Below, piece by piece: positions 3,151 to 53,961 of a DNA stretch of 54,933 nt (positions are counted from its first letter, which is position 1; every line of letters begins with the position of its first letter). The translations under genes and the position numbers were made by a program. Source of the DNA: a virus (taxonomy: Duplodnaviria > Caudoviricetes); IMG/VR virus record IMGVR_UViG_3300032332_000594, positions 1 through 54,933 of that record. One strand, given 5' to 3'. A model generated the notes under the pieces. That model searched no databases and was not told the origin of the DNA. It saw only the letters and a list, made by a program, of their open reading frames with translations.

Positions 3151-3185
3151 AAAGAAGGCCCCCCAATCGGGGGGCTTTCTTTTTT
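3151..3185. terminator. bidirectional intrinsic terminator
   Basis: GCCCCCC-AATC-GGGGGGC stem flanked by A-rich and T-rich tracts at the strand convergence point. Confidence 0.9.
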
Positions 3186-5860: not shown

Positions 5861-7417
5861 TCAGTCTTCAATAGACTGTTGAATGATTCTTGTGGTCTGA
5901 TTCTCGTCATAACCACCGTTATCAAGGTCGCGCAAAGCCTGTGCTCGGTCTCCAAAAATGGCGGACAAAACGCCTCCTGAAGACTGTCGTTCCATAGTCA
6001 ATCGGAACGTTTCTTTAGTGTCATCTAATTCTTTAACAGTCTTAACTAACTTGAATAAACGGTCAATCTCTTGCCCTGTATTTGGGTCAGGGTATCCGCC
6101 GTTCAATTCCTCGCCAAACCTTGCAAATGCTACTCTTTGGCCTTGCATTTCAATAATAGAGTTAAGTAAACCAGTGAGTTGGTCACGCGTCTTAATCTCA
6201 ATAGGCATGTTAAATGCGCAGGTGTTATCTGGCTTAAATGCTGGGCAATTTGATGCTACAAAACAGGTGTTGCACTGCCTCAAAGAAGCCCCTGAAGACT
6301 GTACGACAGGCACCTCTCGGAGCACGTCTCTACCCTCATCATCAGTGTCTACGATGGTCTTCATTTGGTACCCAAAAACAGGTAAATTGATGGTCTCAGA
6401 AGGGTCTCTAGCCACTAAACTTTGCTGCACCATTTGACCCTTGTTATCAGAAGGGGTGGTATCTAAATCGGTCAAACCTGTGTAGAGAGTATCATCGGTG
6501 TTATCAGATAGCATCCCAATAAATTCTTTAATAGGGTCTAGGTCCGAGGGTTCTTGAGGAGAATTGCCCATACCGCCTTCAATAACTTGGAACGGTCGTT
6601 CAGGCTTCTTCTTATCCATGGATTCTTCCAATCTTTGGTAAGACCACACTGCCATCTTGGTGGTCTCTACGTTATCCCCTGCTAAGAACTTACCAACATC
6701 TAGCCCTGCTTTCAGTGCTTGCGTCCGGTATCTTGGCAAGGCTTGCTGGCGCATCTTCTTAGGGTAACGAGATAACTTACCGCCGTCCCATGCGATTACT
6801 TCTCCACGACGCATAGGAGAGAGCCAAGACAATGTAGAGGCTGTAGTGAAAGGTACTTGGCGCAAGTTATCTGGCTTTGCGGTGGCTAACGCGTGAAAGT
6901 TAGTTCCATTACTTCTGCGTAGGCTCTGAGTTAACGATGCTAGGTTAGTCGTAGCCTCTATGGACTCATGAGGTATTGCTATGTTATTAAAGGACTGAGA
7001 TAAAGATACTAAAGTCCCCGGGCCTTGTTCGGCATGCCAGACTGGCCAAAACTTATCTTCAGCATCCATCATTGCTATGCGCTGATTGTTAATCCATGTA
7101 GTGCCCATAGAAAGAGCGTCAAACTCAGTGAACGCGCTAATACGGTCAAAGTTCTCAACAATAAACTCTTCGTACCTAACAGCAAAGTCATTGAGTTCTT
7201 GCTTAGATAGCCCAGCCTTCTCGGCTTGGTAAGCCCCTGACTCTACGATTACTTTCATACTTGGATCAAAACGCTCAGAGATAAGCCAAGACTTTGTCTT
7301 AGGCATCCCACGTTTTACTATTCCCCAGAATGAGATACCAACAACCTCAGCGTTCATTGACTCTAATAAAGTTCTATTAGAACCTATCTCGGCTCCCATA
7401 AAGATAATCTTAGGCAT
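5861..7417 (-). CDS. TGT/DpdA-like TIM-barrel protein with degenerate motifs and a C-terminal 4-Cys domain
   Basis: VESGAY, FTEFD, WPVWH, FHALA and STLSW....RG occur in the same order as DSGAF, D, PVFH, HxLG and DSSSW; CxxC-x5-C-x8-C near the C-terminus. Confidence 0.55.
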   Translation of the reverse strand: MPKIIFMGAEIGSNRTLLESMNAEVVGISFWGIVKRGMPKTKSWLISERFDPSMKVIVESGAYQAEKAGLSKQELNDFAVRYEEFIVENFDRISAFTEFDALSMGTTWINNQRIAMMDAEDKFWPVWHAEQGPGTLVSLSQSFNNIAIPHESIEATTNLASLTQSLRRSNGTNFHALATAKPDNLRQVPFTTASTLSWLSPMRRGEVIAWDGGKLSRYPKKMRQQALPRYRTQALKAGLDVGKFLAGDNVETTKMAVWSYQRLEESMDKKKPERPFQVIEGGMGNSPQEPSDLDPIKEFIGMLSDNTDDTLYTGLTDLDTTPSDNKGQMVQQSLVARDPSETINLPVFGYQMKTIVDTDDEGRDVLREVPVVQSSGASLRQCNTCFVASNCPAFKPDNTCAFNMPIEIKTRDQLTGLLNSIIEMQGQRVAFARFGEELNGGYPDPNTGQEIDRLFKLVKTVKELDDTKETFRLTMERQSSGGVLSAIFGDRAQALRDLDNGGYDENQTTRIIQQSIED

Positions 7418-7420
7418 TGG

Positions 7421-7891
7421 CTACTCCCATCGATTATCTAAGTCATACCCTACTTCGTGCAGTACGCGATTCTTAATAGACTCTTCAATGTCAGTCCACG
7501 CCCGAACCTTCTTAGGGGCGTCTGGACGCCACTCAGGGCGCGATACTCCGGGGTGGGCAAATAAATACACCACAATCCCTTGGTCGAATGCCCACGCTGC
7601 CAGTGAGGGGTCAGCGGTAACCAAGGCATCCACAGGCTTTTGTGTACGTTGTAGAGTGATTTGTCGGCGAGTTAAGTCCTCACCATGAAGTCCTTGCTTG
7701 TTATCAATCAATTCATCTACCAGCGGTGAGTATCGATTCTCTGCAAGCCATCTGTTAGCAGACTCAGCAGAGTCTGCTGTAAGGATGATAAGTTCATTAA
7801 AAGGTTTAAGACCTTGCAGTAGACGAGCACCTTCAACAATAGGGTTGTTACCCCGTTGCAGTACCCCTTCTAATGTGACAAGTATTCTCAT
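7421..7891 (-). CDS. HAD-fold protein with degenerate motif I
   Basis: ILVTLEGVL in place of hhhDxDGVL; ILTA (motif II) followed by W-L. Confidence 0.6.
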   Translation of the reverse strand: MRILVTLEGVLQRGNNPIVEGARLLQGLKPFNELIILTADSAESANRWLAENRYSPLVDELIDNKQGLHGEDLTRRQITLQRTQKPVDALVTADPSLAAWAFDQGIVVYLFAHPGVSRPEWRPDAPKKVRAWTDIEESIKNRVLHEVGYDLDNRWE

Positions 7892-7893
7892 AA

Positions 7894-8814
7894 TTAACCT
7901 TGTGCACGATAAGTCGCTGCACGACGGATCAAAGTGTCAGTATCAGGTAGTTCAATACCGTAAGTTTGTTTATTAATATTTTCTTTACTAGTTGTTTGAT
8001 ACTCTTTCAACGTCTTTAATGCAGGCACCGTTCCTAGCCGTTTACCTGATTGCCAACGATAATTGTGAAAGTCTGAGTACCCTTCACCAGTGGTACTAAA
8101 GGCTCTGCGACGCCCTTCGTGAATCTCATCAAATAAAGCAGACCCCATGTCTACAGCCATGTGCAGACGAGTCTCTGCGTTACGACGAGCGGCATCATTA
8201 GGCGCATTACGTAAATCTGTCAGTGCTTGCGAGTAACGTGTAACAGTCTCTAATGCATGTTTGTGGTCTCTGTTAACTGCTTCTGACCATGCTGAGTTGG
8301 CGGGGGCATGAGCACCTTTATCTGGGAACACCGTCCAGTCATCGTGAGTGAGGTCGTAGGCTGCGTAAGGGTTAATCACCCGAATGTCTGTTGCTCCCGG
8401 ATTAACATAAAACGTAAGTTCGTAACCTTCCCAGTCTGCGGTGTGTGGCATGACGTCTGTTCTAAACTCTTCGTTTAGTTGCTTACTAATCTCAACGTCG
8501 CTTAAACCTACGTACGCAGGATTGGCTTTACGAAACTCAACGTAGTCAACCCCAAGTAAGCAGTCTAAGTCTCCGGGGTGGCGCGAGGCTGACCACTGAT
8601 ACGAAACCCCCGAACCTGCTAACCATGCATGTACCCAGTATTCAGAATGCATGTACTTCTCAGAGAGGTAGTTTAATAGGATTGAGTTAATAGCATTACG
8701 AACCCATGACTTTAGTTGAATGCCTTCGAACAATGAAGGGTCTAAGGAACCTTCGGGTGCACTAAAGTAAGAGGTCTCTGACCCCGAAACATTCACAGAA
8801 TCAGATGTGTCCAT
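7894..8814 (-). CDS. Pol-beta superfamily nucleotidyltransferase
   Basis: LAGSGVSYQW...GDLDCL (hGS...DxD) with a third acidic residue in YELTFYV. Confidence 0.75.
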   Translation of the reverse strand: MDTSDSVNVSGSETSYFSAPEGSLDPSLFEGIQLKSWVRNAINSILLNYLSEKYMHSEYWVHAWLAGSGVSYQWSASRHPGDLDCLLGVDYVEFRKANPAYVGLSDVEISKQLNEEFRTDVMPHTADWEGYELTFYVNPGATDIRVINPYAAYDLTHDDWTVFPDKGAHAPANSAWSEAVNRDHKHALETVTRYSQALTDLRNAPNDAARRNAETRLHMAVDMGSALFDEIHEGRRRAFSTTGEGYSDFHNYRWQSGKRLGTVPALKTLKEYQTTSKENINKQTYGIELPDTDTLIRRAATYRAQG

Positions 8815-9042
8815 TTATTCATCTTCCTCAGATGGTTCGGGTAAATCCAGTTTATTATCTGGTTTCTTTAAAAACTTATTCTTAATCTCTGGCTCTTCGT
8901 AGTCGGTTACGATGCTGGTCACAAAGCCACAAGGCACATGTGCGTTTGCAAATCTGTGAACCAGCATCCATACCGCTGACTCTTCTTCACTACTAAGTGA
9001 GAGGGAACCTTCACAGTACCCACAAGTCATGTCTACGTGCAT
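8815..9042 (-). CDS. small Cys/His protein
   Basis: CGYC...H...AH..C; tightly packed in operon. Confidence 0.7.
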   Translation of the reverse strand: MHVDMTCGYCEGSLSLSSEEESAVWMLVHRFANAHVPCGFVTSIVTDYEEPEIKNKFLKKPDNKLDLPEPSEEDE

Positions 9043-9047
9043 GGGTG

Positions 9048-9371
9048 TTACTCTGTCTTATCCAAAGAAACACCGCGGTCTGCAAGGGCATCACGAACCT
9101 GCTCTGCGCTTGTTGCTTCTTCCTTAGGAAGGATAGAAGTCAGAACGTCTGCGATGCTACGCACCTGAATTTCGGCTGAAATGTCCAAGCAAGCGCGACG
9201 TACATCTACGATGTTTGCCTCACGCTCTGCCACTACGGCCTCTTCAGGCATGCGAGTAAGAAGGACAGGTGTACCTGCCTTATCAATTACAACAAGGAAA
9301 AACGTCTGAACCTCAATTGGTTCCTTGGTCGTTTCTTCAACGGTTGTTTCTTCTGGTGCTGTTTCAGTCAT
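9048..9371 (-). CDS. hypothetical acidic protein
   Basis: Overlaps the upstream gene; 107 aa. Confidence 0.75.
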   Translation of the reverse strand: MTETAPEETTVEETTKEPIEVQTFFLVVIDKAGTPVLLTRMPEEAVVAEREANIVDVRRACLDISAEIQVRSIADVLTSILPKEEATSAEQVRDALADRGVSLDKTE

Positions 9372-9927
9372 TGTACATTCCTAATAGTTTTCTTTTACGA
9401 GTTGTTACGGTGCTATGCACAGGGCAGAAGTGACATAGGTACACTTTTGGTCCCGGCATACTTGCTGCTGATGGCAACCCTAGTTCCTTACGGTCTGCTT
9501 TTGTAGACTCAGGCACTAGACGTTTATCATCCCGCTCATAATCCCCACAACCATTTTGTGGGCGATTATGTGCAGAAAAACATTTTAATGCATCTTCGGA
9601 GAAGGTACTCTTTGAATCATAATAAGTGTTATCGATTTCACCAAGGCCTTTTGAACCTCCACCACGAATCTGCTCAATGATTGCTTTACGCTTCTTTTCA
9701 TCGATCCATTCCTTGACAGGCATGATAAACAAACGGCCCTTATGAGGGTCGCCCGAGGGAAACACATGCTTCTCACATGAGATAGTGAGTGTCACGTCAT
9801 TCTCTGGCTTACCCTCAAAGGGGGGCAACTCCTCAAGAGTGTTGCATACCAGACAGTACAGCAGTCTAAATACAGGTCCCATGTCCTGTTTAGCGTTACC
9901 GGGCTTGATTAAAGGGATGTCTCCCAT
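9364..9927 (-). CDS. putative zinc-binding protein
   Basis: CLVC, CEKH, C...H, CHFC motifs; AGGAG RBS. Confidence 0.75.
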   Translation of the reverse strand: MGDIPLIKPGNAKQDMGPVFRLLYCLVCNTLEELPPFEGKPENDVTLTISCEKHVFPSGDPHKGRLFIMPVKEWIDEKKRKAIIEQIRGGGSKGLGEIDNTYYDSKSTFSEDALKCFSAHNRPQNGCGDYERDDKRLVPESTKADRKELGLPSAASMPGPKVYLCHFCPVHSTVTTRKRKLLGMYND

Positions 9928-9955
9928 GTTGTGCTCCTATGTATTCTTAGTTAAT

Positions 9956-9984
9956 AAGATACTACATTAGTACTTTATTAACAA
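9956..9984 (-). promoter_or_regulatory. sigmaA-like promoter TTGTTA-N17-TATCTT
   Basis: AT-rich intergenic region heading the 9927-5861 gene run. Confidence 0.55.
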
Positions 9985-9995
9985 ATTAGTATGTA

Positions 9996-11234
9996 TTAAC
10001 GAGGCTGACGAGGAGGTTGTTTTGCTTCACGAATTGGGCGTTCTGGAAGGTCTGTACGTTCCCTACGTGGTACTGTCCCTTCAATTACACGACCGCCCGT
10101 AACGAGTGCCGAAGTGTCTCCTACAATTCTTGACAAAGCGTCTGTACTCAATACGCCCTTATTTTGCTCACCCATTACTCCTGCTTGAGTAGCAATGGTC
10201 TTTTTAATTAAAGAAATGCCTTGACGAATGTTTCTCTTATGCGTTTGAATTTGAGCCAAACGTTCAGGGGTTGCGCTAGAAGGGTCACGTTGGTGCTTTG
10301 CAATCATGTTGGTCATAAACTGATGGGACATTGCAACGCCATTAACTAAATCTGCAACCTTAGGGGCTACACGAGTTAAACGTGCATGCGCTTCTTGATA
10401 AGAAGAGTGTGCTTTCGCGTATTCTTCTGATGCTGGGTTGAATGTACTACGAGTTTGAGCATGCTCAATGGCTTGGTCTGCTAATTGCTGTACTGAGTTA
10501 GGGGTAGCACCTAATCCTCGTACCTCTGCTTGAGTCCTTGGAACAGCGCCTGCGTCCAACCCAACTGCCATAGCGCCAACGCCTGAAGGCAAACCTGCTG
10601 GAAGTACCCCTTGCAAGTCATGAGGAGTGCGGGAGGCTGTGCGAACACTTAATTCTGCTTCAGAACCAAGTAGGCCTCGCATCTGTTCTTCAGTGACATT
10701 ACTAGTTTCTGGCTTTGGCTGACTTGCTATGCGCTCTTGACGCTCTTGGTGTGCTGCACCAATCGTTTTAATGTCAGAACCAAGAGTTGCACAATCTCTA
10801 CAGACTGCAGTGGTCTTGTTACTACGAGGGCCGTTCTTTACAGACACCATACGTGCTGGAACAGCCTCTTTACGACATGTTGGGCACGGATTACTTACAG
10901 CAGTTGTCTCAGTAATAGGCGAGCCTGCAGTTGCTGACTCATCAACAGTCCTAGGGCTAGAGTCTCCTCCACGCAAACGTGTGAAAGGTGAAGTAGAGTC
11001 TTTTACATCTGACTCAAGTACTTCACTCTTAACAACTTTATCATGAGACTTTTGCTGAACGTCTAACTTGGCTCTTGCAGTTTCACGCTTTTTTACAATA
11101 CGGTCTAAAGCAGGGCCAGTAACACCCGCTTCTCGTGCATCATGGTGGGCTGCTACGGCAGCATCATGCTCGGCTCGTACTTTTTCTAATGCGGCAAGAG
11201 ACTTTTGTACAGGGGTTGCTGCTCTACGTGCCAT
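9996..11234 (-). CDS. hypothetical Ala-rich protein with two CxxC motifs
   Basis: 412-aa ORF; CPTC...CRDC. Confidence 0.8.
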   Translation of the reverse strand: MARRAATPVQKSLAALEKVRAEHDAAVAAHHDAREAGVTGPALDRIVKKRETARAKLDVQQKSHDKVVKSEVLESDVKDSTSPFTRLRGGDSSPRTVDESATAGSPITETTAVSNPCPTCRKEAVPARMVSVKNGPRSNKTTAVCRDCATLGSDIKTIGAAHQERQERIASQPKPETSNVTEEQMRGLLGSEAELSVRTASRTPHDLQGVLPAGLPSGVGAMAVGLDAGAVPRTQAEVRGLGATPNSVQQLADQAIEHAQTRSTFNPASEEYAKAHSSYQEAHARLTRVAPKVADLVNGVAMSHQFMTNMIAKHQRDPSSATPERLAQIQTHKRNIRQGISLIKKTIATQAGVMGEQNKGVLSTDALSRIVGDTSALVTGGRVIEGTVPRRERTDLPERPIREAKQPPRQPR

Positions 11235-11236
11235 GC

Positions 11237-11443
11237 TTACTTACCCGGATTAATCTTTGCTGGGAATTCCTGATTGATGAACCCATAACCTGCGAATGAG
11301 TGAAGGCTCTGGCGATTAGCAAGCGTCTTTTCATTGCCTTGACCGGGGGTCACTTCGGTATTTGGGCGTGCTTTACGGTACTTACCATCTGTAGCACCAT
11401 CATTTAGTGATACGTTCATGGAACGACTTGTGTTTACGGCCAT
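11237..11443 (-). CDS. small hypothetical protein (start re-called at MAVNTS)
   Basis: ATG at 11443 avoids overlap with the upstream gene. Confidence 0.7.
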   Translation of the reverse strand: MAVNTSRSMNVSLNDGATDGKYRKARPNTEVTPGQGNEKTLANRQSLHSFAGYGFINQEFPAKINPGK

Positions 11444-11468
11444 TAGTTGGCACCCACTTTCTTGGTCA

Positions 11469-11669
11469 TTACACCATCCGATTCTTAATTCTATCGTTAT
11501 GTTGCCTTGTTGTGCAGTTAATACACAAACCATTACTATTAATAACTTGTGTTGGGTTAAGGATTACCCCGCACATAGGGCAAGGGTGAGAACCGTTGTA
11601 AACAGTCGCATTATGAGCAATCTGCGCTGCCTGTAGTTCCATTGTGAAGGCGCCATCACCGTCGTCCAT
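11469..11669 (-). CDS. small zinc-ribbon protein
   Basis: CPMC...CINC; TAATG overlap. Confidence 0.75.
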   Translation of the reverse strand: MDDGDGAFTMELQAAQIAHNATVYNGSHPCPMCGVILNPTQVINSNGLCINCTTRQHNDRIKNRMV

Positions 11670-12028
11670 TAAACACCACCCAAATCATTTCGAGAAGTAC
11701 CTGAGTACCCTGCTGGACCACCTGAAAACCACGACACTCGTGGCTCCATGTAATGACGGTCTAAGTCAATGATGTCGCGAATTCCTCGCACTGTGTTGTC
11801 ATACCCAAAACGATCTGGAAACAACTGAATCTGAGGCATAGGTGGTCGCACCATCTTTTGAATGACGTCACTTGGCATTGTGGCAACCATGAGGGCTTGC
11901 TGTGTCAACCGTTCTTCATTAGACGCAAATGGGCCTGTGTATTGCCAACGTGGCATAACACCATCCGGCTTAAGCGGAGGGCGCCATGGCTTGGTGCGGT
12001 CATACACACCATCTGGAGTGTTAGCCAT
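11669..12028 (-). CDS. Pro/Gly-rich hypothetical protein
   Basis: GGAGG RBS, 119 aa. Confidence 0.8.
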   Translation of the reverse strand: MANTPDGVYDRTKPWRPPLKPDGVMPRWQYTGPFASNEERLTQQALMVATMPSDVIQKMVRPPMPQIQLFPDRFGYDNTVRGIRDIIDLDRHYMEPRVSWFSGGPAGYSGTSRNDLGGV

Positions 12029-12970: not shown

Positions 12971-13495
12971 TTATCTCCAACTTGGTTTCATGCGGTCGAA
13001 CTGGCGTGCTCGTCGCTCGTTAATTTCACCGGGTTCATTTGCACGATGGTCTGCTTTACCATCATTAACTAGGTGAGGTCCGGGAACTAAAATTGGGTTA
13101 GGGGCAAACCTTGGCGCCATTAATACATTGCCAACTTGCTTTGCCATCGCCTCTCGGCGTAGTCCTGCGTCTGGCTGGAAAGTATCTGGCCAAAGGTAGT
13201 TGCTAACATCAATCTTTTCACCCTTGTGCACACCACGCTGGTAAGACTTATCGCCAACGCGTGTCTTAATAGAGTCAAGAAGGCGGTCATCACGACGAGA
13301 ACGAATTGTTCCTAGGTAACCATCAGGGTATTCAGCAGACGGAGTACGGGCAGTACCCATACGCTTGAAGTCCATGTCTGAACGTGCAACAGGGAGACCG
13401 CCACCACCGTAGTTGGTGTAAGTACCACTAAACCCACTACCGCCAGTATTCTGCCAGTTTTGTTGTGGTGTCCAGTTATTAGGACCAGTTGCCAT
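12971..13495 (-). CDS. Gly/Pro/Arg-rich hypothetical protein
   Basis: TAATG overlap, AAGGGG RBS. Confidence 0.8.
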   Translation of the reverse strand: MATGPNNWTPQQNWQNTGGSGFSGTYTNYGGGGLPVARSDMDFKRMGTARTPSAEYPDGYLGTIRSRRDDRLLDSIKTRVGDKSYQRGVHKGEKIDVSNYLWPDTFQPDAGLRREAMAKQVGNVLMAPRFAPNPILVPGPHLVNDGKADHRANEPGEINERRARQFDRMKPSWR

Positions 13496-16385: not shown

Positions 16386-16676
16386 TTAACTAGCAGAAAT
16401 CACAAAAACAATTGCGGAGATTTCGCCGTCTCGGCTTTCAATAGTAGTAAATCCGGGCTTGCAAGTAAGGTCTAGACCTCTTGGAGCCACGTACCCACGA
16501 GCAATAGCCAATGCTTTTACTGCCTGATTCACAGCACCTGCGCCTACAGCCCGCAAGCGGACCTCGCGCTTATCGTACAGAGCGTGAGCGATAGCGCTTG
16601 CTACTGACTGGGGGTTACTTCCCGCACTTACTCGCAAGAATGGTTCTTCAACATTCTTTACTTCTTCGTTATTCAC
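16386..16676 (-). CDS. spoVS: SpoVS family (Alba-like fold) nucleic-acid-binding protein
   Basis: LRVSA.SNP.SVA.AIA and AVGAGAVNQAVKALAIARGYVAP.G.DL...PGF signatures. Confidence 0.95.
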   Translation of the reverse strand: MNNEEVKNVEEPFLRVSAGSNPQSVASAIAHALYDKREVRLRAVGAGAVNQAVKALAIARGYVAPRGLDLTCKPGFTTIESRDGEISAIVFVISAS

Positions 16677-18682: not shown

Positions 18683-19537
18683 TTAATCCTCCTCATAAGG
18701 GGCACAGGACTTGCATCCCTTTTTACTTACATTACAGGGAAGCGGAGTGCCCGCTTCAACTGCGTCTACAATTTGCTTTGCGGCATCAAAGATGTGCTCC
18801 ACAAGATCATAGGACGCTTTTACAGAAAACTCTTTGTAAGACTGGTCTGCTTTGAGTTCGTACAAAAACACAATCTCAGTAGGGTAACTGTCTACAAGAC
18901 CTTTGGCGTGCATGCGCTTGAGCAACTCTAAGTAAATGTTACCTTGCATCAAGTGAGTCTTAAATGGACGGCGAATGTTGCGCCAACCTTCTAGCAAGTC
19001 TCCACCAGCCATTAATGCAGGGGCTTCCATCCGGATAGTTCCTGCACCAATTGATTTAATTTCAATAAGACATTCGTCATTAATACCTTTAATCCAACCA
19101 TCTGCGTGGCCCGCAATGCGCAAGTCATCGTCTTTCAAAGAAATTTCATCGTATTTAAAACGATAACTCCTGCACAACTTACAGGTTGTAGGACTCGTAA
19201 CATGTGTTACGTTCCAACAGTTTTGGCATACCCATTTACCATAAAGCACACCCATTTCGGCAAACCAGTTTTGCCATTTGTGATGAATAGCGTGGCCTTC
19301 ATCAAAGATCGATTGTAGACGGAGATTTGGTCGTTCTTCTTTCTTCTCTGCCCCATTGAGCAAGAAGTAGGATGCACGATGGCACCATGTGTCTTTAGCC
19401 ATTTCGCTAGGATGTAGTACATCTGTGCGCCTGTCTCCTACAGGGCGAGCCATCAAGTGACGTTCAATCTCACCGATTAAACGTGAACTAGGTCGCTTGG
19501 CATCTAAAAACTTTTTAAGGTCTCCGTCTGGTTTCAT
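18683..19537 (-). CDS. Cas4-like PD-(D/E)xK exonuclease
   Basis: HPSE...C, G.AIH, GHADG, EIKS, Q..IY and C-terminal Cys cluster. Confidence 0.85.
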   Translation of the reverse strand: MKPDGDLKKFLDAKRPSSRLIGEIERHLMARPVGDRRTDVLHPSEMAKDTWCHRASYFLLNGAEKKEERPNLRLQSIFDEGHAIHHKWQNWFAEMGVLYGKWVCQNCWNVTHVTSPTTCKLCRSYRFKYDEISLKDDDLRIAGHADGWIKGINDECLIEIKSIGAGTIRMEAPALMAGGDLLEGWRNIRRPFKTHLMQGNIYLELLKRMHAKGLVDSYPTEIVFLYELKADQSYKEFSVKASYDLVEHIFDAAKQIVDAVEAGTPLPCNVSKKGCKSCAPYEED

Positions 19538-19851
19538 TAAGGTGCACCCTTTTCTATAAACTCTTGTAGCGTCATCTTAGCAGTGTTCTTGTTCCATTTG
19601 CGAATCAGAGCATTTCGCTCTCTGTGAGACAGACCTCCCCAAATACCATGAGGTTCATCTGTCTTTAACGCAGTCATTAAACAGGCTACTCTTACTGGGC
19701 ATGGCATTCGTCCGTCATGCCCTAAGCAAATTCCTTTTGCTTTAGTAGCGATTGCTTTGTATTTATTTTTGTCCCTTGGCGGATAAAACATATCCGTGTC
19801 CTCCCCAGCACATTTGGCTTCATACCGCCATGCGTACTCGGGTTCTTGCAT
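19537..19851 (-). CDS. whiB: WhiB-family Fe-S transcription factor
   Basis: Four Cys, CPVR..CL..AL and GIWGGLS..ER. Confidence 0.93.
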   Translation of the reverse strand: MQEPEYAWRYEAKCAGEDTDMFYPPRDKNKYKAIATKAKGICLGHDGRMPCPVRVACLMTALKTDEPHGIWGGLSHRERNALIRKWNKNTAKMTLQEFIEKGAP

Positions 19852-29216: not shown

Positions 29217-29426
29217 CTACTCACCGTCTAACGCTTTGATAGTTGGACATGGGTAAATGGCTAAACATTCTTCACAAAACTCTGCAATTTCAGTTTCTTG
29301 AATGTGCAACTCACGCACACGTTGGATGGCTTCAGTCTTTTGCTTGTTTAGTTCCATGTACTGAACAGCAGTTGCGTTCCAATTCACTTCACCAACATCA
29401 ATAGTTTCAATTTTGTCACTCATCAC
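29217..29426 (-). CDS. small zinc-binding protein, paralog of 29423-29635
   Basis: RELH...CEEC...YPCPTIKALDGE. Confidence 0.8.
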   Translation of the reverse strand: MMSDKIETIDVGEVNWNATAVQYMELNKQKTEAIQRVRELHIQETEIAEFCEECLAIYPCPTIKALDGE

Positions 29427-29635
29427 TTCTCACCATCTAACGCTTTAATAGTTTCGCATGGCCAATGACCCCATACGCCAAAGTCATTATCGCCATAACA
29501 CTCTTGGCAAAATGTCCCTTCTAGTCCGGGCACTTGTGGCTTGTGCAACTCACGAATGCGCTGGGCTAAGTCGTCTGCGCCCTCTTTCCTAGCAACACCA
29601 CAGCCCCTACATCCACAGCGAATCTCGTCAGCCAT
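29423..29635 (-). CDS. small zinc-binding protein
   Basis: RELH...CQEC...WPCETIKALDGE. Confidence 0.8.
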   Translation of the reverse strand: MADEIRCGCRGCGVARKEGADDLAQRIRELHKPQVPGLEGTFCQECYGDNDFGVWGHWPCETIKALDGEK

Positions 29636-53223: not shown

Positions 53224-53961
53224 TTATTCTCCTTGTAAGGGGGCTCTTACGTCCCGTAGCGAGTATGTTGAGTCTACGTTAGATGGGTTGCATTGTCCTG
53301 AATAAAGAGGAGAAGGAGCATACACATTAAAGATGTCTTCTTGTTTAAAAAAGAACCAATCTGCAGGCAAAGAAAGTTCTTTTTCTACAAGGTCGATGGC
53401 TTTTTTAGCGCCTTGTTTTGTTAATAAATAACAACCCAAAGAGCATAATTGATAGGCTTTACATACTGAGACCGCCCCTACATCGTGCGCGGGCGTGTGC
53501 GCTCCAAGTTCTCCAAGAGGAACATGAGCAGTAAACATATCCCAACCAGCAGGTAAGTCACCAAGATAGACGTCTAATGCTTCTAAAAAGTTGCTGTAAA
53601 CAAACAGGTCATCTTCTGCAAGAAGCACTACATCAGCATCAGATTCCATAAAGTTTTTCCACGCCAAGTAGTTACTTGCTAGAATTCCAACTTCCCCAAA
53701 AAGCCAACCAGTAGCGCCGCTAGGGTCGGTATAACCATCAAGGTTTAATTTGAACTTTGGGTTTTCAGATAAAAAACTGGATACTTCTTCTTGATTAGAA
53801 ATACGAATAGTAGGAGTTTCTAATTTAATAAACTTTGTAGATAAAACAGCATCAAGAGCGTCGTATGTCTTTTGTCTATTAATAGACTCTTCCAAATGAA
53901 AGATGTTGTAAACAATCTTTGAGTTAATAATGATAAACCTCTTTACGCGGAGAATCGCCAA
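53224..53961 (-). CDS. glycosyltransferase family 25-like protein (start uncertain)
   Basis: GEVG..AS...AW, LLAEDD, YLLT..GAKK and PADW motifs. Confidence 0.8.
   Translation of the reverse strand: MAILRVKRFIIINSKIVYNIFHLEESINRQKTYDALDAVLSTKFIKLETPTIRISNQEEVSSFLSENPKFKLNLDGYTDPSGATGWLFGEVGILASNYLAWKNFMESDADVVLLAEDDLFVYSNFLEALDVYLGDLPAGWDMFTAHVPLGELGAHTPAHDVGAVSVCKAYQLCSLGCYLLTKQGAKKAIDLVEKELSLPADWFFFKQEDIFNVYAPSPLYSGQCNPSNVDSTYSLRDVRAPLQGE

What the first reader, a model, noticed from the sequence alone, without database searches (positions are those of the whole stretch)
5861..9927. Candidate undescribed system: TGT/DpdA-like + pseudo-HAD + nucleotidyltransferase + zinc-protein operon
Seen: six tightly packed genes behind one promoter. 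They are a multi-Cys/His protein, two small proteins, an NTase with intact GS/DxD, a HAD fold with Thr replacing the nucleophilic Asp, and a TGT-like barrel (ESGAY for DSGAF, STLSW for DSSSW) fused to a 4-Cys helical domain. No folE/queC/queD/queE is present in this window. Known: TGT/DpdA enzymes exchange guanine for 7-deazaguanines using catalytic aspartates. Inference: not a standard dpd system. It may be a complex in which inactive TGT and HAD folds bind or sense nucleotides, tRNA or DNA while the NTase is catalytic (tRNA repair, signal synthesis, protein nucleotidylation or counter-defence).
Basis: partly seen in the sequence, partly recalled or inferred. Interest (0 to 1): 0.8.

Follow-up and report, generated by a model that had tools for sequence, protein, structure and literature searches.

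The report
Phage DpdA-like gene lacking catalytic aspartate
A widespread group of phages of actinobacteria carries a copy of the enzyme that normally swaps guanine in DNA for 7-deazaguanine, but it has lost the residue that does the chemistry and comes without the genes that make the replacement base, so it probably does another job.

Summary

- **The 518-aa protein** is a divergent member of the phage DpdA1 family (phrog_887 E 2e-55; hhalign to the validated CAjan DpdA 97.4%). Its barrel matches TGT, DpdA and Cap10 structures (Z 15-16.5). An acidic linker and a Cys4 C-terminal domain follow.
- **The nucleophile is gone.** The Asp is Ser194 here. It is never Asp in 80 of 80 close relatives and is Asp in only 1 of 133 distant ones. 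Seven DpdAs that sit beside preQ0 genes all keep it.
- **No deazaguanine pathway.** QueC and QueD are absent from five complete relatives and from phages BRock and GiJojo.
- **The neighbours:** a HAD-fold protein that never has its nucleophilic Asp (0 of 61), a Pol-beta-type nucleotidyltransferase with intact motifs, and a Cys6His2 protein.

The genes travel together, but only within one collinear actinophage lineage, so a single functional system is not shown. Most likely this is a repurposed or dead DpdA (confidence 0.6), not an ordinary dpd module. I rate it a new variant of a known kind, with moderate interest.

The parts
9364..9927 (-). 187-aa Cys/His-rich protein (g187). Invariant C25, C28, H54, C116, C127, C165 and C168, with H62 in 57 of 59; likely two zinc sites. 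No known family.
   Evidence: ORF. Conservation in 59 sequences. Codons checked. No Pfam, PHROG, NCBIfam or PADLOC hit. ESM Atlas uninformative. Present upstream of the DpdA-like gene in 52 of 52 IMG/VR loci with at least 2800 nt of flank and in 8 of 8 actinobacterial loci with flank.
9048..9371 (-). 107-aa acidic small protein (g107), poorly conserved.
   Evidence: ORF. pI 4.3. tblastn finds it in only 4 of the fetched loci. Weak match to BRock gp41.
8815..9042 (-). 75-aa acidic small protein (g75) with conserved Cys and His (CxxC ... H ... H..C); a variable member of the cluster.
   Evidence: ORF. Detected in 12 of the fetched loci, with the conservation pattern.
7894..8814 (-). 306-aa Pol-beta-superfamily nucleotidyltransferase (g306). 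NTase domain about residues 40-155 with G67-S68, D82-x-D84 and E132; helical bundle about residues 172-290; conserved N-terminal motif at residues 14-31.
   Evidence: AF2 model pLDDT 85. Foldseek PDB hits are weak (best E 8e-3, ANT(6)-Ib; also AadA, Tam41, CdnE/CdnD, CCA enzymes). VIA gives 1ylq Z 6.5 on residues 40-155. BFVD relatives at E about 1e-9 to 1e-10 include a protein named 'Polymerase, nucleotidyl transferase domain containing protein'. The motifs are invariant in 18 of 18 relatives and in BRock, GiJojo and Nonomuraea homologues.
7421..7891 (-). 156-aa HAD-fold protein (g156) without the motif I nucleophilic Asp (T6 here).
   Evidence: ESM Atlas structural neighbours are HAD_PNKP (TM 0.61-0.65), NIF (0.59; feature score 0.90) and HAD_2. 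Position 6 is S41/A9/V5/N4/T1/E1 of 61 sequences, never D. Position 8 is D42/E15/N4. Annotated 'phosphatase' or 'hydrolase' in Streptomyces phages.
6608..7417 (-). N-terminal DpdA/TGT-type TIM barrel of the 518-aa protein (residues 1-270). E59-S60-G61, D100, H128 and H175 are kept; S194 stands in place of the nucleophilic Asp.
   Evidence: phrog_887 E 2e-55. AF2 pLDDT 76-93. Foldseek top 50 are all TGT, E 3e-5. VIA: 1iq8 Z 16.5, 7ui4 (DpdA) Z 15.9, 3unt Z 15.7, 9ntn_B (Cap10) Z 15.1, 6fv5 (QTRT2) Z 14.6. hhalign to CAjan DpdA 97.4%. Residue table.
6383..6607 (-). Acidic, low-confidence linker (residues 271-345).
   Evidence: pLDDT 26-35. Net charge -9, pI 4.1. Length varies in alignments A1 and A2.
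5861..6382 (-). C-terminal Cys4 plus helical domain (residues 346-518) with C382-x2-C385-x5-C391-x8-C400. It is fused to the barrel in Bacillus phage BCD7 and is a separate neighbouring gene in Bacteroides phage BS162P1.
   Evidence: The four Cys are present in 133, 133, 133 and 132 of 133 representatives. hhalign to BS162P1 gene 88 is 99.5%. Covered by phrog_887 positions 353-487. The domain is acidic, pI 4.7. The AF2 model is poor here.
9928..9995 (-). AT-rich intergenic gap upstream of the cluster, with a ribosome-binding site (TAGGAG) before the first ATG. A promoter is possible but not shown.
   Evidence: Sequence. No consensus promoter here.

Best explanation
The 518-aa gene encodes a DpdA1-derived protein that no longer works as a 7-deazaguanine DNA transglycosylase.

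Shown:
- It has a TGT/DpdA TIM barrel that keeps the residues which in DpdA and TGT read the guanine-like base (E59/S60/G61, D100, H128, H175).
- It has Ser where DpdA and TGT have the Asp that forms the covalent ribosyl-enzyme intermediate.
- That position is free to be S, T, A, G, M or I across the family.
- A Cys4 C-terminal domain follows. Elsewhere this domain accompanies Asp-bearing DpdAs beside preQ0 genes.
- The lineage carries no preQ0 genes.

Inferred:
- The basic barrel (pI 9.0) still binds nucleic acid or a guanine-like ligand without exchanging the base.
- The protein therefore acts as a non-catalytic or repurposed factor, expressed within the leftward block of replication, recombination and nucleotide-metabolism genes.
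- The adjacent HAD-fold protein is likewise a non-phosphatase binder.
- The Pol-beta-type NTase is the only neighbour with an intact catalytic set.

These genes, together with the Cys6His2 protein, are inherited as a block in one actinophage lineage. Whether they act together is open.
For: Family and fold:
- phrog_887 E 2e-55 over both domains. The same PHROG takes CAjan DpdA at 8e-96 and BCD7 at 2e-151.
- Foldseek top 50 hits are all TGT.
- VIA Z 15-16.5 for arcTGT, DpdA 7ui4, TGT, Cap10 and QTRT2, against 13 or less for generic TIM barrels.

Catalytic map:
- hhalign of the family to the validated CAjan DpdA gives 97.4%, E 1e-11, and places D of 'DSG' on E59 and D of 'DSSSW' on S194.
- The same columns hold D in 7 of 7 DpdAs that sit beside preQ0 genes, and S, A and S in BRock, GiJojo and the window.
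- E. coli Tgt D264, CAjan's Asp and window S194 all lie 11 residues before the conserved Gly.
- In Salmonella DpdA the three Asp are called invariant in both families, and D95A or D256A abolishes exchange (PMC10164549, passages read).

Family-wide loss:
- Position 194 is S in 67 and T in 13 of 80 IMG/VR relatives.
- It is D in 1 of 133 full-length representatives.

No pathway:
- QueC and QueD are absent from 5 of 5 complete (terminal-repeat) relatives of 95-100 kb.
- FolE is absent from 3 of 3 of those tested and from BRock. BCD7 is positive in every control.
- Of 5 actinobacterial genomes that carry the module, only 2 have a full QueC and none has TGT.

Selection: 561 IMG/VR relatives and 799 clusters at 50% identity, with invariant W198 and Cys4.
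Against: - No residue-level structural superposition could be made, so the catalytic map rests on profile alignment and anchor spacing.
- Glu59 could still serve as general acid.
- An acidic residue at 206 (E or D in 127 of 133 representatives; E in 80 of 80 close relatives) is absent from six canonical DpdA1 proteins. It could be a relocated nucleophile.
- The base-reading residues are strictly kept in the close clade, which fits an active pocket as well as a binding one.
- Two of five host genomes carrying the module do have QueC, so host supply of a deazaguanine is not excluded everywhere.
- The hosts of the window's own clade are unknown.
- DNA binding was not tested.
- The C-terminal domain is acidic and unmodelled.
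Confidence: 0.6

Rival explanations
1. The protein is still an active DNA (or RNA) base-exchange enzyme that uses a different nucleophile, for example the acidic residue at 206. It would insert a base supplied by the host, or made with help from the neighbouring NTase and HAD-like proteins. The phage DNA would then be modified after all.
For: - E or D at 206 in 127 of 133 representatives and in 80 of 80 close relatives, against S/T/S/M/G/T in six canonical DpdA1 proteins.
- BCD7 has both D194 and E206, a possible intermediate.
- Pocket residues E/D59, S60, G61, D100, H128 and H175 are kept in the close clade.
- Phages that encode only DpdA are already thought to use host precursors (PMC6884629, passages read).
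- 2 of 5 host genomes have QueC.
Against: - E206, E98, W127 and E251 are shared with Asp-bearing BCD7. They therefore look like subfamily signatures that predate the loss of D194.
- 3 of 5 host genomes lack a full QueC and 0 of 5 have TGT.
- In the wider family position 59 is not acidic in 31 of 133, plus 3 gaps, and position 100 is not D in 29 of 133. That is unusual for an essential active site.
- D256A abolishes activity in Salmonella DpdA.
Confidence: 0.2
2. The six genes form one system in which the Asp-less DpdA and HAD folds are sensor or adaptor subunits and the NTase is the catalytic part. It would nucleotidylate a protein or nucleic acid, or make a signal. This is compatible with the best explanation for the 518-aa protein.
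For: - Tight coupling of the ORFs.
- g156 is found in 76 of 76, g306 in 64 of 64 and g187 in 52 of 52 IMG/VR loci with enough flank.
- Among 50,697 isolated phage records, g306 and g187 occur only in the 5 Streptomyces phages (6 records) that also hold the Asp-less DpdA-like gene.
- No homologue of them was found next to the Asp-bearing DpdAs of BCD7 and BS162P1.
- Precedent: the TGT-like Cap10 binds a CD-NTase in type IV CBASS (bioRxiv 10.1101/2025.04.06.647259, passages read), and Cap10 is among the top structural matches.
Against: - Flanking genes with no evident link (RNR 66 of 66, g98 48 of 48, g119 46 of 46, g174 43 of 43) co-occur just as perfectly. The pattern is lineage collinearity.
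- BRock-like phages have an endolysin and a 388-aa gene inserted inside the cluster.
- g306 is detected in only 2 of 8 actinobacterial loci, and g156 in 4 of 8.
- All carriers belong to one broad phage lineage.
Confidence: 0.25
3. The protein is a counter-defence decoy. The Asp-less barrel keeps a 7-deazaguanine/guanine pocket and sequesters deazaguanylated host immune proteins (type IV CBASS, QatABCD) or a purine-based signal.
For: - Structural similarity to Cap10 (Z 15.1).
- Pocket residues are kept while the nucleophile is lost.
- QueC-family deazaguanylation is used in defence.
Against: - Cap10 itself keeps its catalytic Asp (D248).
- There is no PADLOC hit.
- No evidence was found that the hosts carry such systems.
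- The similarity to Cap10 is no greater than to ordinary TGT or DpdA.
- The idea rests on analogy alone.
Confidence: 0.06
4. The gene is a decaying relic of a former DpdA with no function of its own.
For: Loss of the nucleophile and of the preQ0 genes.
Against: - Full-length open frames in 80 of 80 loci, with invariant D100, H128, W198, G205, E206 and Cys4.
- 799 clusters at 50% identity.
- Retained across relatives that share about 30% identity.
Confidence: 0.03

Closest known systems
Phage DpdA1 (DNA preQ0 transglycosylase), e.g. Escherichia phage CAjan gp35
   Same: Same PHROG (phrog_887). Profile alignment 97.4% over 209 columns. Shared D/E-S-G, D100, H128, H175, W198 and G205.
   Different: CAjan is 306 aa with no linker or Cys4 domain. 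It has Asp at both catalytic positions and sits among FolE, QueD, QueC and QueE. The window protein has E59 and S194, and its lineage has no preQ0 genes.
Bacillus phage BCD7 gp21 (fused) and Bacteroides phage BS162P1 genes 87+88 (split): DpdA with the Cys4 domain
   Same: Same two-domain make-up. BCD7 hhalign is 99.7%; BS_87 matches the barrel at 98.5% and BS_88 the C-domain at 99.5%. BCD7 also shares E98, W127, E206 and E251.
   Different: Both keep D59 and D194 and lie next to preQ0 genes: FolE, QueC, QueE and QueD in BCD7, and a QueC-like gene in BS162P1. No g306, g156 or g187 homologue was found beside them.
Singleton DpdA of phages without preQ0 genes, e.g. Mycobacterium phage Orion gp20 (phrog_1279)
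   Same: An actinophage DpdA homologue with no pathway genes. Orion DNA showed no 7-deazaguanine, and the authors asked whether this subset has diverged in function (PMC6884629, passages read).
   Different: Orion gp20 is 258 aa, belongs to a different PHROG, has no Cys4 domain, and keeps both Asp ('DSGG', 'ADSMAW'). The present family is the one that has lost the nucleophile.
Non-catalytic or repurposed TGT-fold proteins: QTRT2, and Cap10 of type IV CBASS
   Same: TGT barrel used for binding rather than, or besides, base exchange. Both are among the top five structural matches (Z 14.6 and 15.1). Cap10 pairs with a nucleotidyltransferase.
   Different: No detectable sequence relationship beyond the fold. 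Cap10 keeps a catalytic Asp-His pair and needs a QueC-like Cap9 and a Gly2 N-terminus on its CD-NTase. None of these is present here.
HAD phosphatases of the PNKP and NIF types
   Same: Predicted fold (TM 0.59-0.65). Motif I has the shape hhhh-x-L-[DE]-G-V-L.
   Different: The nucleophilic Asp is absent from 61 of 61 sequences, so phosphatase chemistry through an aspartyl-phosphate is not expected.
Pol-beta-superfamily NTases with a helical C-domain (ANT(6)/AadA, CD-NTases, CCA-adding enzymes)
   Same: hG[GS] and DxD motifs plus a third carboxylate. An N-terminal alpha/beta domain followed by a helical bundle.
   Different: PDB matches are weak only (best E 8e-3). The substrate is unknown. The nearest relatives are uncharacterised phage proteins.

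Membership tests
TGT/DpdA superfamily | TGT-type (beta/alpha)8 barrel fold | tested here: met
   Foldseek top 50 hits are all TGT, E 3e-5, prob 1.0. VIA: 1iq8 Z 16.5 (rmsd 3.6, 259 aligned), 7ui4 Z 15.9 (rmsd 3.7, 260 aligned), against generic TIM barrels at 13 or less.
Phage DpdA1 | Sequence homology to validated DpdA1 | tested here: met
   phrog_887 E 2e-55. hhalign to CAjan gp35 97.4%, E 1.2e-11.
Catalytically competent DpdA/TGT | Nucleophilic Asp (SmDpdA D256, E. coli Tgt D264) | tested here: not met
   S194 in the window. S in 67 and T in 13 of 80 close relatives. D in 1 of 133 representatives. D in 7 of 7 pathway-linked DpdAs.
Catalytically competent DpdA/TGT | General acid/base Asp (SmDpdA D95) | tested here: inconclusive
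   Glu59 in the window. E in 65 and D in 15 of 80 close relatives. D81/E18 and other residues in 31 of 133, plus 3 gaps. Whether Glu can substitute was not tested.
Catalytically competent DpdA/TGT | Base-recognising Asp and His (SmDpdA D130, H181) | tested here: met
   D100 and H128 are present in 80 of 80 close relatives and align with D and H of canonical DpdA1. Equivalence to SmDpdA rests on order and spacing, not on a superposition.
Catalytically competent DpdA/TGT | Structural zinc site of TGT | tested here: inconclusive
   A different Cys4 motif (C-x2-C-x5-C-x8-C) lies in a separate C-terminal domain. That part of the model is poor, and the metal is unknown.
Phage 7-deazaguanine DNA modification system | preQ0 synthesis genes (FolE, QueD, QueE, QueC) in the phage or a host supply | tested here: not met
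   QueC and QueD are absent from 5 of 5 complete relatives. FolE is absent from 3 of 3 tested. BRock and GiJojo are negative, and BCD7 is positive. Full QueC occurs in 2 of 5 carrier genomes. QueE was not searched by its own model; no radical-SAM hit appeared in the window.
HAD phosphatase superfamily | Rossmannoid HAD fold | tested here: met
   ESM Atlas model neighbours are HAD_PNKP, NIF and HAD_2, TM 0.59-0.65. This is lead-level evidence from predicted models.
HAD phosphatase superfamily | Motif I nucleophilic Asp (DxD) | tested here: not met
   T6 in the window. S41/A9/V5/N4/T1/E1 of 61 sequences, never D.
Pol-beta nucleotidyltransferase superfamily | hG[GS] ... DxD motif plus a third carboxylate on the NTase fold | tested here: met
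   G67, S68, D82, D84 and E132 are invariant in 18 of 18 relatives and in 3 distant homologues. Fold hits are weak in the PDB and at E about 1e-9 to 1e-10 in BFVD, including a named NTase-domain protein.
Type IV CBASS (Cap9-Cap10-CD-NTase) | QueC-like Cap9, a CD-NTase with an N-terminal Gly2, and an effector | tested here: not met
   No QueC-like gene was found. g306 begins M-D-T-S. There is no PADLOC hit.

The most novel reading that the evidence does not exclude
The Asp-less DpdA barrel is the ligand-holding or target-holding subunit of a previously undescribed phage system. It would act in one of two ways: as a base-exchange enzyme with a relocated carboxylate that installs a non-deazapurine modification, or as a Cap10-like adaptor that presents a guanine-like moiety or nucleic acid to the neighbouring nucleotidyltransferase. 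The HAD-fold and Cys6His2 proteins would be non-catalytic partners. If so, 'DpdA' would no longer be a safe signature of 7-deazaguanine DNA.
Probability: 0.15. Interest if true: 0.8.

Novelty: new variant of a known kind. Interest (0 to 1): 0.55.

Why it matters
DpdA has been proposed as a signature protein for 7-deazaguanine DNA modification (PMC10516641, passages read). This family is filed under the DpdA1 PHROG and is annotated 'queuine tRNA-ribosyltransferase' or 'dpdA-like' in isolated Streptomyces phages.

A large environmental clade lacks both the nucleophile and any pathway: 561 IMG/VR relatives and 799 clusters at 50% identity. Predictions of modified DNA from this gene are therefore probably wrong for these phages.

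It also gives the open question of the 'singleton DpdAs' (PMC6884629) a concrete, testable case in culturable phages (BRock, GiJojo). Two neighbouring enzyme folds have each lost their nucleophile beside one intact nucleotidyltransferase.

Tried and rejected
Searches that found nothing useful:
- Pfam, NCBIfam and PADLOC found nothing meaningful for any of the six proteins.
- blastn of the region against phage records gave no match.
- HMMER against PDB sequences gave nothing useful with the 518-aa protein, profile A2, the BCD7 barrel, CAjan DpdA or profile A3.
- The ESM Atlas gave nothing for the 187-aa protein.
- Literature searches for an inactive or Asp-less DpdA found none. 'Streptomyces' and 'BCD7' do not occur in the main texts of the two Hutinet papers. 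Their supplementary lists were closed and may name these phages.

Alignments that were not significant:
- hhalign of the family against single E. coli Tgt (prob 0.4%) introduced a 3-residue gap that put D264 on T191. I did not use it. I relied on the significant CAjan alignment and on the shared 11-residue spacing to the conserved Gly.
- hhalign of the family against Orion gp20 was also not significant. Orion's Asp residues were read from a MAFFT alignment with canonical DpdA1 proteins.

Other attempts:
- Complex prediction on the barrel (residues 1-275) with the NTase returned 'no answer' (score 0.05, controls not run). It says nothing either way.
- VIA on the NTase model was dominated by helical-bundle matches of no meaning.
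- tRNA repair: there is no tRNA gene in the window and the HAD nucleophile is absent, so I did not adopt this reading. The window is incomplete.
- Type IV CBASS-like module: rejected as membership (see the membership tests).
- Promoter scan: 3 sites found against 12.3 expected by chance, none upstream of the cluster.

Full report
**What the window is.** The window is an IMG/VR virus record of 54,933 bp that CheckV estimates at 57% complete. It codes almost wholly on the minus strand. Its genes are those of a contractile-tailed phage: sheath, tube and baseplate, a family A DNA polymerase, primase, DnaB-like helicase and RecA/UvsX, plus WhiB and SpoVS homologues. One homologue of the 306-aa protein is labelled as coming from an Actinobacteria MAG. 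The isolated relatives infect Streptomyces. I therefore read it as an actinophage.

**The observation.** All six ORFs are present exactly as described. They overlap by 8 nt or are separated by 0 to 5 nt. The block lies between a 68-nt AT-rich gap and a 127-nt gap. A class II ribonucleotide reductase follows downstream. The consensus scan gave no promoter upstream, so 'one promoter' is not shown. No tRNA gene lies in the window.

**The 518-aa protein: family and fold.**
- Pfam and NCBIfam are silent. PHROGs places the protein in phrog_887 at E 2e-55 over nearly its whole length.
- The same PHROG takes the experimentally validated CAjan DpdA at 8e-96 and BCD7 gp21 at 2e-151.
- An AlphaFold model built on 18 relatives is confident for residues 1-270 (pLDDT 76-93) and poor beyond.
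- The top 50 Foldseek hits are all bacterial or archaeal TGT (E from 3e-5).
- The independent VIA search puts archaeosine TGT (Z 16.5), the DNA preQ0 insertase DpdA 7UI4 (15.9), bacterial TGT (15.7), Cap10 of type IV CBASS (15.1) and QTRT2 (14.6) above all generic TIM barrels, which score 13 or less.

**Catalytic residues.**
- A profile of 107 family barrels aligns to CAjan DpdA with 97.4% probability. It places CAjan's D-S-G on E59-S60-G61 and CAjan's D-S-S-S-W on S194-T-L-S-W198.
- I repeated this for seven DpdAs that lie next to preQ0 genes: CAjan, PaP002, Bipper, RHEph04, R31B, BS162P1 gene 87 and BCD7. All seven have Asp at both positions.
- BRock, GiJojo and the window have S, A and S at 194 (contexts).
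- E. coli Tgt has Asp at 89, 143 and 264. The numbering is recalled from the literature, and the residues were checked. D264, CAjan's Asp and window S194 each lie 11 residues before the conserved Gly.
- For Salmonella DpdA the authors state that D256 is the nucleophile, D95 the general acid/base, and D130 and H181 bind the base. They state that the three Asp are invariant in both families and that D95A and D256A abolish exchange (PMC10164549, passages read).

**How general the loss is.**
- Among 80 IMG/VR relatives (56-60% identity) position 194 is S in 67 and T in 13. Position 59 is E in 65 and D in 15. D100, H128, W198, G205, E206 and the four Cys are present in 80 of 80.
- An exhaustive search found 799 clusters at 50% identity. 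Of the 133 full-length proteins among the best 150, one has Asp at 194. The rest have S58, A18, G16, T15 and assorted hydrophobic residues.
- A position that accepts Ala, Gly, Met and Ile is not catalytic.
- Position 59 is D or E in 99 of 133, and D100 is kept in 104 of 133. The most invariant features are W198 and the Cys4 motif.

**The C-terminal domain.**
- The motif C-x2-C-x5-C-x8-C and the following helices are universal in the family.
- In Bacillus phage BCD7 the domain is fused to an Asp-bearing barrel that sits directly beside FolE, QueC, QueE and QueD.
- In Bacteroides phage BS162P1 the barrel and the domain are separate neighbouring genes (hhalign 98.5% and 99.5%). A QueC-like gene lies just upstream.
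- The domain is therefore an accessory of real DpdA systems and was inherited by the Asp-less clade.
- It is acidic (pI 4.7), while the barrel is basic (pI 9.0). Its fold and metal are unknown.

**Is there a pathway elsewhere?**
- The window is incomplete, so I searched complete relatives.
- Five IMG/VR genomes of 95-100 kb with terminal repeats and 100% estimated completeness have no QueC and no QueD. Three of them were tested for FolE and have none.
- BRock (112.5 kb) lacks QueC, QueD and FolE. GiJojo (115 kb) lacks QueC and QueD. BCD7 scored positive each time.
- Ten actinobacterial assemblies hold relatives at 29-37% identity in prophage-like contexts. Of five searched whole, two have a full QueC and none has a TGT.
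- The second refutation test, 'a pathway elsewhere makes it an ordinary DpdA', also fails.

**The neighbours.**
- **The 156-aa protein.** Its structural neighbours in the ESM Atlas are PNKP-type, NIF-type and HAD_2 phosphatases (TM 0.59-0.65). This is lead-level evidence. In 61 sequences the nucleophile position of motif I is never Asp.
- **The 306-aa protein.** It models well (pLDDT 85). PDB matches are weak but consistently nucleotidyltransferases with a helical C-domain. Viral predicted structures match at E about 1e-9 to 1e-10 and include a named NTase-domain protein. G67, S68, D82, D84 and E132 are invariant, also in the BRock, GiJojo and Nonomuraea homologues.
- **The 187-aa protein.** It has seven invariant Cys or His and one nearly invariant His. 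No relative of known function was found.
- **The two small proteins.** Both are variable.

**Do the genes belong together?**
- They co-occur wherever there is enough flank: 76 of 76, 64 of 64 and 52 of 52 loci.
- Among 50,697 isolated phage records, the NTase and the Cys/His protein occur only in the five Streptomyces phages that also have the Asp-less DpdA-like gene. The HAD-like protein is detected in three of those five phages.
- No homologue lies beside the Asp-bearing DpdAs of BCD7 or BS162P1.
- Against this, the RNR and three upstream genes co-occur just as perfectly.
- BRock-like phages have an endolysin and another gene inserted in the cluster.
- Only 2 of 8 actinobacterial loci show the NTase, and only 4 of 8 show the HAD-like gene.
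- All carriers are one collinear lineage. The third refutation test, 'genes do not co-occur', is not met, but co-occurrence here does not prove a system.

**Comparison with what is known.**
- Hutinet et al. 2019 described 76 phages with DpdA but no pathway. They found no 7-deazaguanine in Mycobacterium phage Orion and asked whether such singleton DpdAs had diverged (PMC6884629, passages read).
- Orion gp20, however, keeps both Asp, belongs to another PHROG and has no Cys4 domain.
- My searches found no report of a DpdA clade without the nucleophile. I could not see the supplementary tables.
- Repurposed TGT folds are known: QTRT2, and Cap10, which holds the deazaguanylated N-terminus of a CD-NTase. 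The defining parts of type IV CBASS are absent here.

**Verdict.** The claim 'not a standard dpd system' is supported. The six-gene complex remains a hypothesis. I give 0.6 to a DpdA-derived protein that no longer exchanges bases. I give 0.2 to an active enzyme with a relocated carboxylate; E/D206 is the candidate, though BCD7 has it together with D194. I give 0.25, not exclusive of the others, to a joint system with the NTase. Interest is moderate: a real, very widespread and testable variant that undercuts DpdA as a marker of modified DNA.

Noticed in passing
window 11237-11533, 11669-12028, 12971-13495 (minus strand): Three small genes of unknown function (98, 119 and 174 aa) travel with the cluster in every lineage examined: 48 of 48, 46 of 46 and 43 of 43 IMG/VR loci, BRock and GiJojo, and (for g119 and g174) 8 of 8 actinobacterial loci. 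The 174-aa protein is the best conserved, at up to 57% identity to Nonomuraea. They may belong to the same module or may simply mark the collinear block.
   Followed up: partly
L099 (Bacteroides phage BS162P1) 3049-5480: A split form of the DpdA architecture. A QueC-like gene, a 275-aa Asp-bearing barrel and a 251-aa Cys4-domain protein are three adjacent genes, all annotated 'hypothetical'.
   Followed up: yes
window 16386-16676 and 19537-19851 (minus strand): The phage encodes a SpoVS homologue (PF04232, E 1.7e-29) and a WhiB homologue (PF02467, E 1.7e-18). SpoVS is also annotated in BRock and BCD7.
   Followed up: no
window 29217-29426 and 29423-29635 (minus strand): Two adjacent, overlapping small genes (69 and 70 aa) both hit the same PHROG of unknown function (phrog_23623). 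This looks like a tandem duplication.
   Followed up: no
window 3151-3182: A strong bidirectional terminator-like hairpin (14-bp stem with 8 G-C pairs, flanked by T-runs on both strands) lies where transcription changes from the plus-strand genes at 195-2953 to the long minus-strand block.
   Followed up: no
window 9996-11234 (minus strand): The 412-aa protein just upstream of the cluster has a weak Lar-like zinc-ribbon match (PF14354, E 1.3e-3, below the cut-off). It is not detected in any of the 80 related loci.
   Followed up: no
window 53224-53961 (minus strand): A 245-aa protein has a family 25 glycosyltransferase match (PF01755, E 1.9e-6) next to tail-fibre genes.
   Followed up: no
window 5861-7417; protein P0001: The protein database records the identical 518-aa protein on a contig of 95,225 bp.
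   Followed up: no
L087 9332-11488 (Nonomuraea typhae): In this assembly the longest open frame over the DpdA-like gene runs to 718 aa, with the phrog_887 match starting at residue 226. This may be an N-terminal extension or an artefact of ORF calling in high-GC DNA.
   Followed up: no
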